Source: Octopus vulgaris
Taxonomy: Eukaryota
Reading direction: 5' to 3'
Length of the DNA stretch: 64,000 nt
Assembly: GCA_951406725.2 (NCBI GenBank)
Contig: OX597831.1
Location: 5,766,001 to 5,830,000, forward strand
Part shown: in pieces, positions 31,495 through 34,454 of the stretch
Numbering within the stretch: position 1 is the first letter of the stretch
Layout: every line of letters starts with the position of its first letter
Made by a program: the position numbers

Positions 31495-31535
<41 letters not shown>

Positions 31536-34454
31536 AAAAAAGGAGATGTCGAACACGAGTGGTGATATATAAAAAAGGAAATGAAGAAAATGCTGACAAA
31601 TAATTGAAGTAATTTAAGTAATTTAATTAGGTGAAAGTTCTATTTACCGGTTGCGCATTTGTTATGCTTATCAAAATATAAAAGAGAGATTAGAGTCTGT
31701 CTCTTATATGTGAAAAAAGAGGCTCCAGAGTTGTTTTGGATTTGCTTGGTTTCGCGCCTAAAATTTTGATTGGTCATTATGAAGGGGTCACGTGAATGTT
31801 TGAATGGAAGTTGGTGTTGGGGTAAGAAAAAAGGCTCCAGAGAAGTTAAAATTTGGCTAGTGTCCCGCCTAAAATTTCTTATTGGCCATAATAAAGAGGT
31901 CACGTGAATGTTTAGAATTTTCGAAAATAGTGTTGTTGAAAATTCTTATTGTTCAGGCTGGTCAGTAGACGTCATGTGGATATTTTAAATAGCTTTTTAG
32001 CGCGTAGTTAGGGAGTGTATTTTCCGCTTGACTGGATAAGTAAGTTCGTTTAGAACAGGGAGAGCTGTATGTATGTATGTGTGTGCGCGCGCGCGCGCGT
32101 GTGTGTTTATATGTATGTTGGGGCGCGCGCGCGTGTATATATGTGTGTGTGTGTGGGTACAATTTTCAATATTTATAGTTCTGCTGGCCTTGTGCCTGTA
32201 TCGGGAAGCAACGTATTTGTGTGAAGTCAATATTTACAGCCATTTCCAAAAAATAGTGTTGGATGTTTTGCACCCGTATTCAATTATGTGTATGTGTGGA
32301 ACCATATATTTGTGTGTGTCATGGTGTTAATATCTGGGTAAAGGTGTGTGTAGGGTGTGTGCAGGTGTAAGTGTGTTTGTTGTGGGTTCGTGTTAGGGGC
32401 ATGTGTTTAGAAGTGGTCTGTATTTATTAATAAGGTGGGATTCCATGGTTATTCGCTGGGTATGAGTGGCATTGTCTTTAAATTTGTAGAGGGAAAGATT
32501 CTAAAATTGGGATGGAGTTGTGCGGCACAGGTATCAATATGTGCACTAAATGCTATTTTTCTATATTCCTGTATTTTAGTGCACATATTGATACCTGTGC
32601 CGCACAACTCCATCCCAATTTTAGAATCTTTCCCCTCTACAAATTTAAAGACAATGCCACTCATACCCAGCGAATAACCATGGAATCCCACCTTATTAAT
32701 AAATACAGACCACTTCTAAACACATGCCCCTAACACGAACCCACAACAAACACACTTACACCTGCACACACCCTACACACACCTTTACCCAGATATTAAC
32801 ACCATGACACACACAAATATATGGTTCCACACATACACATAATTGAATACGGGTGCAAAACATCCAACACTATTTTTTGGAAATGGCTGTAAATATTGAC
32901 TTCACACAAATACGTTGCTTCCCGATACAGGCACAAGGCCAGCAGAACTATAAATATTGAAAATTGTACCCACACACACACACATATATACACGCGCGCG
33001 CGCCCCAACATACATATAAACACACACGCGCGCGCGCGCGCACACACATACATACATACAGCTCTCCCTGTTCTAAACGAACTTACTTATCCAGTCAAGC
33101 GGAAAATACACTCCCTAACTACGCGCTAAAAAGCTATTTAAAATATCCACATGACGTCTACTGACCAGCCTGAACAATAAGAATTTTCAACAACACTATT
33201 TTCGAAAATTCTAAACATTCACGTGACCTCTTTATTATGGCCAATAAGAAATTTTAGGCGGGACACTAGCCAAATTTTAACTTCTCTGGAGCCTTTTTTC
33301 TTACCCCAACACCAACTTCCATTCAAACATTCACGTGACCCCTTCATAATGACCAATCAAAATTTTAGGCGCGAAACCAAGCAAATCCAAAACAACTCTG
33401 GAGCCTCTTTTTTTCACATATAAGAGACAGACTCTAATCTCTCTTTTATATTTTGATAAGCATAACAAATGCGCAACCGGTAAATAGAACTTTCACCTAA
33501 TTAAATTACTTAAATTACTTCAATTATTTGTCAGCATTTTCTTCATTTCCTTTTATATATATATATATATATATATATAATCAAAATAAAAACACGATGC
33601 CAAGGATTCAGCGGTACATATGTTTCGGGCCTTTATTAGACGGATTTATAACAATGCATAATGTGTGTCTATGGCCTTCTTCAGCCGCATACAATTACTA
33701 CTTCAAGGACATGTATTACATTATAAGTTTTACGTTGGGGATGCAAATCTTCACAGTCGCGTACGACAGGGTGGGGCACTAGCACAAAAACGAAGCATCC
33801 ATCTCGTCTTTCAATATATATATATAGAGAGAGAGTTCAAATTTACAGAATACAAAAGACAAAGATGGGTGTAGGAACAACAAGCAAGCGTGTTTGTTTA
33901 ACGCTTGAGAAGAATGCACAAGTTTTTTATGTTTCGAGCCAATGCTCTTCCACAGAAAGGAGTAAGATGGAAAAAAGGAGAGAGAATGAAAAAGTAAAAA
34001 CAGAGAGAAAAAGAGTGTTTAGGGAACATGATGAAATAGCCAGAAGAAAGAGGTTGAATGAAATGGAGATAATAATCCTATATATATCTCATATATAAAA
34101 TCCGTTCTGTGTGTGTGTGTCTCTTCAAGGATCTCGGGCATCCTCCATCCAATTGCGCTCAAATATGATATGTAGATACCGACGGTATCAGGACGTGTAT
34201 AAATCTTGAAAAAATTACAAAAATCGATTCCAGGTGAGAATGCGATCGATAAAGCCGTGGGAACGTGCATTTGTACGTGCTAGTACATCAGTCAAAATCC
34301 GTCTTTTGCTGGTGTCTCAAATGTAGGTTAAATCAGTGTTTCTCAAAGGGGAGGCCTATGGGACGGTCGAACAAGTTGTTTTCAGAAAATTTGGTTTAAA
34401 TCTTTGACAACTCAGCACCGTCCACTGGACGGTAGGGGGCACGTTTTGCTCGTG

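What the first reader, a model, noticed from the sequence alone, without database searches (positions are those of the whole stretch)
31530..33580. Near-perfect 2 kb palindrome that records a PLE fold-back insertion
Seen: arms 31565-32550 and 32575-33560 differ, as far as I can see, only in homopolymer lengths (A6/T4 at the outer end, A6/T7 near 31713/33408, G3/C4 near 32491/32632). The 24 bp spacer continues the GIY-YIG reading frame on the minus strand (IQEYRKIA-FSAHID), so the left copy is 24 nt longer at its 5' end. It also has ~35 extra bp at its 3' end (31530-31564) before (TA)n. Established: Penelope insertions often carry an inverted 5'-truncated copy and a short 3' extension on one repeat. 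Inference: a very recent insertion formed by self-primed fold-back synthesis. It would be cruciform-prone and yield ~1 kb of dsRNA if transcribed, a potential ADAR or siRNA substrate in an animal known for heavy A-to-I editing.
Basis: partly seen in the sequence, partly recalled or inferred. Interest (0 to 1): 0.75.

Follow-up and report, generated by a model that had tools for sequence, protein, structure and literature searches.

The report
Head-to-head truncated Penelope retroelement insertion
This 2 kb near-perfect palindrome is two mirror-image, front-truncated copies of the tail end of a Penelope-like retrotransposon that landed in a (TA)n microsatellite, a known and fairly ordinary insertion pattern for this class of mobile element.

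Summary
Arms 31565-32550 and 32575-33562 are reverse complements. They differ by one mismatch at the (TA)n edge and two one-base homopolymer indels. A 24-nt spacer separates them.

Each arm, read outward from the centre, carries the last 52 codons of an ORF, a TAA stop and about 829 nt of 3' UTR. The 52 residues match the C-terminal half of GIY-YIG domains (27 hits at E<=1e-3; 12 of 27 carry Pfam GIY-YIG). Longer relatives have RVT_1, then HTH_animal and DUF8422, then a C-terminal GIY-YIG. That is the canonical endonuclease-bearing Penelope-like element (PLE) layout.

The spacer's 8 codons align with relatives, so the left copy is simply 24 nt longer. A 32-nt extension sits at the left end only, and perfect (TA)n tracts flank both ends. 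These features match published PLE anatomy (PMC8557442, PMC3846280, PMC11167929; passages read).

The missing tail on the right and the unrelated flanks argue against a simple fold-back assembly chimera. No reads could be checked.

Self-primed fold-back is the favoured mechanism but is not shown. The ADAR and siRNA ideas are untested. It is a clean example of a known structure and of low novelty.

The parts
31498..31532 (.). Left flanking perfect (TA)17.5 microsatellite; presumed left half of the target tract
   Evidence: TRF, 100% matches; sequence printed
31533..31564 (-). 32-nt one-sided extension ('tail') beyond the 3' end of the left copy; absent from the right copy
   Evidence: Alignment of the arms stops at 31565/33562; sequence printed. 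Length and one-sidedness match the 30-40 bp PLE tail (PMC8557442, PMC3846280, PMC11167929, passages). Its element origin could not be confirmed without other copies.
31565..32392 (-). 3' UTR of the left copy (828 nt). It includes a (TG/CG)n-like stretch and about 1.8 units of a 112-nt tandem repeat (about 31715-31918)
   Evidence: (mirror of the 33208-33412 array)
32393..32574 (-). Coding remnant of the left copy: 60 codons of the C-terminal half of a GIY-YIG endonuclease plus a TAA stop (32393-32395). A 1-nt deletion (G3 at 32491-32493) breaks the frame. The first 8 codons are the 24-nt 'spacer' 32551-32574
32575..32733 (+). Coding remnant of the right copy: 52 intact codons (FSAHID...LNTCP) of the C-terminal half of the GIY-YIG domain plus a TAA stop (32731-32733)
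   Evidence: phmmer found 27 hits at E<=1e-3, best 5.6e-11; 12 of 27 carry Pfam GIY-YIG. Alignment A1; tblastn
32734..33562 (+). 3' UTR of the right copy (829 nt). It ends inside a TATATA run that merges with the flanking (TA)n, so the junction is a microhomology junction
33554..33579 (.). Right flanking perfect (TA)13 microsatellite; presumed right half of the target tract
   Evidence: TRF

Best explanation
The locus is a single integration of a canonical (C-terminal endonuclease) Penelope-like retrotransposon into a (TA)n microsatellite. It left two head-to-head, 5'-truncated copies of the element's last ~1 kb. Each copy holds 52-60 codons of the GIY-YIG endonuclease, a stop codon and an ~829-nt 3' UTR. 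The copies carry no RT and no complete endonuclease, so they are dead on arrival.

Favoured sequence of events (inferred, not shown):
1. The element's endonuclease cut the (TA)n tract.
2. The left 3'-OH primed reverse transcription at the distal start site of the RNA, so this copy keeps the 32-nt tail.
3. After about 1,042 nt the RT left the RNA and continued on its own nascent cDNA. This was a fold-back or intramolecular template switch, and the 24-nt asymmetric spacer is the loop.
4. The returning strand was joined to the right (TA)n end through the element's internal TATATA run, which removes the tail on that side.

The arms are still identical apart from homopolymer lengths, so the event is very recent, or the differences are sequencing noise.
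For: Shown:
- Palindrome anatomy.
- The 52-aa ORF end matches GIY-YIG C-terminal halves: 27 hits at E<=1e-3, and 12 of 27 have Pfam GIY-YIG, 10 above the gathering score.
- A profile search for longer relatives gave 44 proteins. HTH_animal (PF26215) is in 44 of 44, DUF8422 (PF28514) in 22 of 44, RVT_1 in 17 of 44 and GIY-YIG in 10 of 44 (family names).
- In 5 of 5 relatives scanned the GIY-YIG is C-terminal, and 4 of 5 have RVT_1 upstream.
- 43 of 44 carry C(2-5)CxxC upstream of YIG, the Neptune/Nematis-type linker described in PMC8557442 (passage).
- The spacer codons align with relatives.
- Both ends abut perfect (TA)n. Only 2.3% of window positions lie in or next to a (TA)>=10 tract, so both ends doing so by chance is about 5e-4 if independent.
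- One-sided 32-nt extension.

Literature (passages read):
- PMC8557442: inverted 5'-truncated copy, a 30-40 bp tail at one end, and (TA)n as a preferred target, there stated for Naiads.
- PMC11167929: the tail is the stretch between two internal RT start sites.

Inference favouring fold-back: the two inner ends differ by only 24 nt. By my own rough estimate, two independent truncations within an element of a few kb would coincide this closely only a few percent of the time.
Against: - No RT, pseudo-LTR, direct repeat or hammerhead ribozyme is present in this copy or anywhere else in the window. The PLE assignment therefore rests on a 52-60 aa fragment plus insertion anatomy.
- Pfam itself does not call GIY-YIG on the fragment.
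- The first word-based search found nothing.
- The 3' boundary and the element origin of the tail could not be checked against other copies, because no animal genome collection was available.
- For fold-back specifically, the 3' end of the longer cDNA has no good complementarity at the switch point. There are at most T-A, G.T and C-G pairs with an unpaired terminal T (and direct reading).
- PMC3846280 notes that self-priming giving head-to-head copies would need an antisense template.
- The (TA)n preference is published for Naiads (N-terminal EN), not explicitly for this clade.
Confidence: 0.75

Rival explanations
1. Two-ended target-primed reverse transcription. Both 3'-OH ends of the cut (TA)n tract primed a cDNA. 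The left one started at the distal site (with tail). The right one started at the internal UAUAUA, which is complementary to the (TA)n primer (no tail). The two cDNAs were then joined end to end in the middle by template jump or end joining.
For: PMC11167929 (passages) reports that a purified PLE protein cleaves and extends both top and bottom strands and starts at two internal sites that delimit the tail. The polarity fits: in each arm the strand continuous with the flanking 3' end is the antisense (cDNA) strand (direct reading). The central junction has essentially no microhomology, as expected for an end-to-end jump. The right junction lies in a TATATA/(TA)n overlap.
Against: It does not explain why two independent cDNAs stop within 24 nt of each other, unless the template RNA itself was truncated there. 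That cannot be tested here.
Confidence: 0.3
2. Retrotransposition, or DNA-level copying, of a pre-existing palindromic master. A read-through transcript of an older inverted pair was reverse-transcribed in one pass from the right (TA)n end, so the palindrome was inherited and not made at this site.
For: PLE inverted structures are common and can be transcribed (PMC3846280, passages on transcription and small RNAs). A single pass would give identical arms and a fixed 24-nt spacer.
Against: No second copy exists in the 64-kb window. An RT would have to traverse a ~1-kb perfect RNA hairpin (-275.7 kcal/mol for the central 326 nt alone). The left end finishes with the element's tail abutting (TA)n, as expected for a primed 3' end and not for an RNA 5' end.
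Confidence: 0.07
3. Post-insertion DNA rearrangement. A single 5'-truncated copy was later duplicated in inverted orientation by replication template switching (a fold-back inversion). The arms may since have been homogenised by gene conversion, so the insertion need not be young.
For: Microhomology (TATATA against (TA)n) at the right outer junction. Arm-to-arm gene conversion in palindromes is established knowledge (recalled, not searched).
Against: It needs two template switches, the central one without microhomology. It would coincidentally reproduce the typical PLE arrangement, including the tail at one end only (PMC8557442, passages).
Confidence: 0.07
4. Assembly artefact. A fold-back chimeric long read (strand followed by its complement) created a false palindrome.
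For: All three arm differences are homopolymer-length differences. Only 24% of arm positions lie in runs of 3 or more, so three out of three is about 0.015 by chance. This is the typical residual error of long-read consensus. PLE tandem/inverted structures are said to cause assembly problems (PMC8557442, passage).
Against: A fold-back read would mirror everything up to the read end. Here the 32-nt tail is on one side only. The flanks beyond the (TA)n tracts are unrelated to each other (one search shows only microsatellite pairs outside the arms; one search shows no cross-match). The centre carries 24 nt of genuine element coding sequence, not adapter or nothing.
Confidence: 0.08

Closest known systems
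Canonical EN+ Penelope-like elements with C-terminal GIY-YIG and a CX2-5CxxC linker (Neptune/Nematis-type)
   Same: The ORF ends in a GIY-YIG domain. Relatives have RVT_1 upstream, and 43 of 44 have C(2-5)CxxC before the GIY-YIG core. The insertion is a 5'-truncated, head-to-head inverted pair with a one-sided 32-nt tail. This is the anatomy described in PMC8557442 and PMC3846280 (passages).
   Different: This copy keeps only the last ~1 kb. It has no RT, no pseudo-LTR direct repeat and no hammerhead motif in the retained part. The clade assignment comes from relatives' motifs, not from a phylogeny. The best relative is only 60% identical over 48 aa.
Naiad/Chlamys PLEs (N-terminal GIY-YIG)
   Same: Insertion into (TA)n microsatellites, lack of a canonical hammerhead, inverted/tandem structures and a tail (PMC8557442, passages).
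   Different: In Naiads the endonuclease is N-terminal, so a 5'-truncated copy would end in RT. Here the ORF's last residues are the GIY-YIG C-terminal half, and relatives have the EN at the C-terminus.
L1 'twin priming' inversions
   Same: Both involve the two ends of a target break and RT products meeting head to head (recalled knowledge, not searched).
   Different: As I recall it, twin priming yields an inversion of different segments of one RNA, not an inverted duplication of the same 3' segment. No poly(A) is involved here.
Foldback DNA transposons / long hairpin (hpRNA) loci
   Same: Long inverted arms with a short spacer; potential to form hairpin RNA.
   Different: Each arm is a retroelement 3' end with its coding sense pointing outward. 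There is no transposase and no subrepeat-built terminal arms. No evidence of transcription was available.

Membership tests
EN+ Penelope-like element (canonical, C-terminal EN) | GIY-YIG endonuclease domain at the C-terminus of the ORF | tested here: met
   Only the C-terminal half is retained. There are 27 hits at E<=1e-3, and 12 of 27 have Pfam GIY-YIG. The alignment shows the invariant Glu and the P.LN end. The stop comes 3 residues after LN, as in relatives. Pfam alone does not detect the domain in the fragment.
EN+ Penelope-like element (canonical, C-terminal EN) | PLE-type reverse transcriptase in the same ORF | tested here: not met
   No RT is present in this copy or anywhere in the window. 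tblastn with 62 relatives of 300 aa or more gave 24 HSPs, all at 32400-32730. This is expected for a 5'-truncated copy. Among relatives, 17 of 44 have RVT_1 and 4 of 5 of those scanned do.
EN+ Penelope-like element (canonical, C-terminal EN) | Inverted 5'-truncated copy adjacent at the 5' end | tested here: met
   Head-to-head arms of 986 and 988 nt, with inner ends 24 nt apart; feature as described in PMC8557442 (passage).
EN+ Penelope-like element (canonical, C-terminal EN) | Optional 30-40 bp tail at one end only | tested here: met
   A 32-nt extension at 31533-31564 lies between (TA)n and the left arm, with none on the right. Its element origin is not verifiable without other copies.
EN+ Penelope-like element (canonical, C-terminal EN) | Pseudo-LTR (partial tandem direct repeat) | tested here: not met
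   No direct repeat of the unit exists in the window. Not every PLE insertion has one (PMC8557442 Fig. [quoted passage not shown]
EN+ Penelope-like element (canonical, C-terminal EN) | Hammerhead ribozyme motif in the terminal repeat | tested here: not met
   No Rfam hammerhead at E<=1 in 30000-35000. No CTGANGA core inside 31565-33562. The motif might lie in the missing 5' part.
EN+ Penelope-like element (canonical, C-terminal EN) | Target-site duplication | not testable with these tools
   Both junctions lie in (TA)n, so a duplication cannot be told from the microsatellite.
Naiad/Chlamys PLE (N-terminal EN) | GIY-YIG at the N-terminus, RT at the C-terminus | tested here: not met
   The 3' end of the ORF is GIY-YIG. 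In relatives the domain is C-terminal in 5 of 5 scanned.
Fold-back chimera (assembly artefact) | Mirror symmetry continues into the flanks up to the end of the chimeric read | tested here: not met
   The tail is on one side only. The flanks are unrelated.
Fold-back chimera (assembly artefact) | No independent read spans both flanks | not testable with these tools
   No read data are available.

The most novel reading that the evidence does not exclude
This could be an essentially unmutated snapshot of one PLE integration, in which both junction types are readable at single-base resolution. One end starts at the distal site (with tail). The other starts or joins at an internal UAUAUA that is complementary to the (TA)n target. 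The two inner ends lie 24 nt apart. If the pattern recurs across the family, it would show that (TA)n targeting in a C-terminal-EN clade works through primer-template microhomology at the internal start site, and that inverted copies arise by an intramolecular switch onto the nascent cDNA. That would settle a point left open in the PLE literature I read (PMC3846280, PMC8557442).
Probability: 0.2. Interest if true: 0.45.

Novelty: new member of a known kind. Interest (0 to 1): 0.22.

Why it matters
It is a tidy, probably very young example of the inverted-copy-plus-tail architecture that defines Penelope-like element insertions. It shows that a C-terminal-EN PLE family was recently active in this genome and uses (TA)n tracts.

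Practical points:
- Such ~1-kb perfect palindromes are hard to assemble and polish. The homopolymer differences may be errors.
- They are expected to be unstable (recalled knowledge).
- They would give hairpin RNA only if a host transcript reads through them.

None of this changes current understanding of PLEs. Its value is as one data point for a family-wide junction survey.

Tried and rejected
- Pfam on the 52-, 83- and 88-aa central ORFs gave no GIY-YIG call, only two sub-threshold unrelated hits.
- The word-based search for longer homologues with the single fragment found nothing. It worked only with the profile.
- Rfam at E<=1 over 30000-35000 gave 29 hits, all below the gathering scores. 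Nearly all are miRNA-precursor models, plus a snoRNA (sno_ZL1) and RUF21. They lie on the palindrome centre or on microsatellite tracts, and I take them as artefacts of hairpin-forming sequence. There was no hammerhead. The CTGANGA core is absent from the arms and occurs at chance frequency in the window (27 found against 26.6 expected).
- A search for a paralogous 'empty site' or a second copy in the window found none. The immediate flanks are unique.
- A PDB sequence search with a full-length relative gave 0 hits.
- Cluster look-up of 7 relatives returned no names or accessions, so the host lineage of the relatives was not pursued.
- The ESM Atlas with the 52-aa fragment gave only unnamed or phage clusters, with GIY-YIG families at 0.86-0.87. 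This is a weak lead only.
- Foldback DNA transposon and miRNA/hpRNA-gene readings were rejected, because each arm is a retroelement 3' end with outward coding sense.
- A simple fold-back assembly chimera was rejected because of the asymmetric tail and flanks.

- Any search of an animal genome, reads, RNA-seq or small RNAs.
The family's other copies, its 3' boundary and its full-length form therefore stayed unchecked at the DNA level.
- Supplements of the three papers were not opened.
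Full report
OBSERVATION

The region was read directly and scanned for inverted repeats. A local alignment of 31480-32562 against the reverse complement of 32563-33640 gives three gapless blocks of 148, 778 and 60 nt. These are 31565-31712/33562-33415, 31713-32490/33413-32636 and 32491-32550/32634-32575. 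Together they hold one mismatch and two single-base indels.

The arms are therefore 986 nt (31565-32550) and 988 nt (32575-33562), separated by 24 nt (32551-32574). The differences are A6 against T7 near 31713/33414 and G3 against C4 at 32491/32634. At the outer edge there is A6 against T4, which can equally be read as one A/T mismatch where the element's ATATATA meets the microsatellite.

All differences are in homopolymers. Only 24% of arm positions lie in runs of 3 or more. No substitution separates the arms elsewhere. The window has no N, and the unit has no other copy in the 64 kb.

WHAT THE ARMS ARE

Read outward from the centre, each arm starts with an open frame that ends in TAA. On the right arm this is + strand, 32575-32730, with the stop at 32731-32733. 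On the left arm it is the minus strand, with the stop at 32393-32395. About 829 nt of non-coding sequence follows.

Pfam does not recognise the 52-aa fragment, and a word-indexed search found nothing. An exhaustive phmmer search of 1.84 billion representatives found 27 proteins at E<=1e-3. The best has E 5.6e-11 and 60% identity over residues 3-50.

Of those 27, 12 carry Pfam GIY-YIG, 10 above the gathering score. In every one of the 10 above the gathering score, the fragment matches the last part of that domain. I aligned the fragment with 23 of the hits. I left out P0003 and P0027, which do not look like family members, and the longer P0009 and P0022. The alignment shows the fragment covering the segment S.HI..CA...F.IFP.YKF.DN...R..KE..FI.KYKP.LN. 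It has an invariant Glu and a near-invariant P.L.

A profile search restricted to longer proteins returned 44 proteins of 316-867 aa. PF26215 is in 44 of 44, PF28514 in 22 of 44, PF00078 (RVT_1) in 17 of 44 and PF01541 (GIY-YIG) in 10 of 44. The Atlas names PF26215 as HTH_animal and PF28514 as DUF8422. It lists the neighbouring clusters as mainly animal: Mollusca, Arthropoda, Nematoda and Porifera. Two of the clusters are instead recorded as largely bacterial (Pseudomonadota).

Five relatives were scanned locally. All five have GIY-YIG at the very C-terminus, and four of the five have RVT_1 upstream. A regex check found a YIG core in 44 of 44 and a C(2-5)CxxC motif within 90 residues upstream in 43 of 44.

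RT followed by a C-terminal GIY-YIG is the architecture of canonical EN+ Penelope-like elements. The extra CX2-5CxxC motif is described for the Neptune and Nematis clades (PMC8557442, passages read).

THE SPACER

On the minus strand the 24 nt read IQEYRKIA, in frame with FSAHIDTCAAQLHPNFRIF. This aligns without gaps to MQGYRKIRLSEDIDMYVSKKQPSFTIF of P0012 and to MRDYKNVRLSKLIDICATNEQPNFRIF of P0002. The spacer is thus element sequence, and the left copy is simply 24 nt longer at its 5' end.

The right arm's C4 keeps the frame found in relatives (FRIFPLYKFKDNA). The left arm's G3 shifts it. The left copy therefore carries a 1-nt loss, or a consensus error.

THE ENDS

On the left, perfect (TA)17.5 (31498-31532) is followed by 32 nt (31533-31564) that have no counterpart on the right. 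The arm follows. On the right, the arm runs into perfect (TA)13 (33554-33579) through the element's own TATATA, so that junction is a microhomology junction.

(TA) tracts of 10 or more units, with 3 nt either side, cover 2.3% of the window. Both ends abutting one by chance is about 5e-4 if the ends are independent.

The flanks beyond the tracts are unique in the window and unrelated to each other. No paralogous empty site was found.

WHAT IS MISSING

No RT or other PLE coding sequence lies anywhere else in the window. tblastn with 62 relatives of 300 aa or more gave 24 HSPs, all at 32400-32730. There is no direct pseudo-LTR repeat. There is no hammerhead ribozyme by Rfam at E<=1 and no CTGANGA core within the arms. 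The Rfam hits at the centre are sub-threshold miRNA-precursor models that simply score any perfect hairpin.

COMPARISON WITH PUBLISHED ANATOMY

I read passages only, not whole papers, and opened no supplements.

- PMC8557442 states that PLE insertions are strongly 5'-truncated. It says an inverted 5'-truncated copy often lies immediately at the 5' end and that a 30-40 bp tail is often present at only one end. It adds that such structures trouble assemblies and that (TA)n microsatellites are preferred Naiad targets.
- PMC3846280 describes a 31-bp tail at the 3' end of one inverted pLTR. It argues that palindromes at head-to-head junctions are best interpreted as self-priming, while noting that this would need an antisense template.
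- PMC11167929 reports that a purified PLE protein cleaves and extends both DNA strands. It initiates at two internal RNA sites, and the interval between them is the tail.

The locus reproduces all of these traits, so it is a member of a known structural class.

MECHANISM

What the sequence shows: in each arm the strand that continues from the flanking 3' end is the antisense (cDNA) strand. This is as expected if (TA)n 3'-OH ends primed reverse transcription.

What is inferred: I favour one integration event. In it the left-primed cDNA, started at the distal site and therefore carrying the tail, left the RNA after about 1,042 nt and copied itself back. The 24-nt asymmetry is the loop. The returning strand then joined the right (TA)n end at the internal TATATA.

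The main argument is that the inner ends are only 24 nt apart. By my own rough estimate, independent truncations would rarely coincide this closely.

Against it, the 3' end of the longer cDNA can form at most three imperfect pairs with the switch point, leaving a 17-nt loop and an unpaired terminal T (and direct reading). Any self-priming was therefore nearly homology-free.

The chief rival is two-ended priming followed by an end-to-end join. It is directly supported by the in vitro behaviour in PMC11167929. It also neatly explains the tail-less right copy, through priming at the internal UAUAUA that is complementary to (TA)n. It needs a truncated RNA or a strong stop to explain the coincident inner ends.

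Lesser rivals are a copied master palindrome, a later DNA-level inverted duplication with gene conversion, and an assembly artefact.

A simple fold-back chimera is contradicted by the one-sided tail, the unrelated flanks and the genuine coding spacer. Reads could not be examined, however, and homopolymer-only differences are what consensus errors look like.

AGE

There are zero substitutions (or one) in 986 aligned positions. By a Poisson bound this gives an upper 95% limit of about 0.3% arm divergence. The insertion is therefore very young, unless gene conversion homogenises the arms.

The centre folds as a perfect hairpin: -275.7 kcal/mol for 326 nt, z = -38. Cruciform or hairpin-RNA potential is therefore trivially true.

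The coding sense of both copies points outward, and any promoter in the 3' region would fire outward too. A 1-kb dsRNA needs read-through from a host transcript. No transcription, editing or small-RNA data were available, and the host species was not identified. The ADAR/siRNA idea remains speculation.

VERDICT

The PLE interpretation is supported. The specific fold-back mechanism is plausible but unproven, and it was already proposed in the literature. The downstream biology is untested. This is an ordinary, if unusually clean, member of a known kind.

Noticed in passing
window 33208-33412 (+), mirrored at about 31715-31918: The element's 3' UTR contains about 1.8 units of a 112-nt tandem repeat (79% matches). 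Each unit carries a CACGTG E-box (33220, 33332) followed about 20 nt later by CCAAT (33241, 33353). This looks like promoter-type modules. PLE terminal repeats are reported to have promoter activity (PMC3846280, passage). In this palindrome both sets would point outward into host DNA.
   Followed up: partly
window 15046-16226 (+): Two adjacent ORFs carry a Tc3-type transposase HTH (PF01498, E 1.8e-10) and a DDE_3 endonuclease (PF13358, E 1e-7). Together they look like a Tc1/mariner-type DNA transposon remnant.
   Followed up: partly
window 15512-15820 (-), 51879-52199 (+), 54545-54814 (-), 60790-61200 (-): A recurring ORF-like stretch (…RPRKDERQSRPRRNLNSER…RNTAKHFARR…) appears at four or more places in the window. 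It is presumably an interspersed repeat family. Pfam found nothing for the one copy tested, 60790-61200.
   Followed up: no
window 26357-26809 (+): A 151-aa open frame (…RHLPYSERLTSLGMDTLKL…) resembles, from memory only, the C-terminal region of LINE ORF2 proteins. Pfam gave no hit.
   Followed up: partly
whole window: The window is extremely rich in microsatellites. There are 38 perfect (TA)>=10 tracts, plus many (TG)n, (TAGA)n, (AG)n and (TATC)n arrays. GC content is 37%. A 464-nt stretch at 34080-34517 has a 78% identical copy at 16680-17132.
   Followed up: no
P0003 (1747 aa; hit): One phmmer hit matched residues 15-36 of the fragment in six separate stretches of a 1747-aa protein with no clear Pfam family. 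It was treated as a repeat or low-complexity artefact and left out of the alignment.
   Followed up: no
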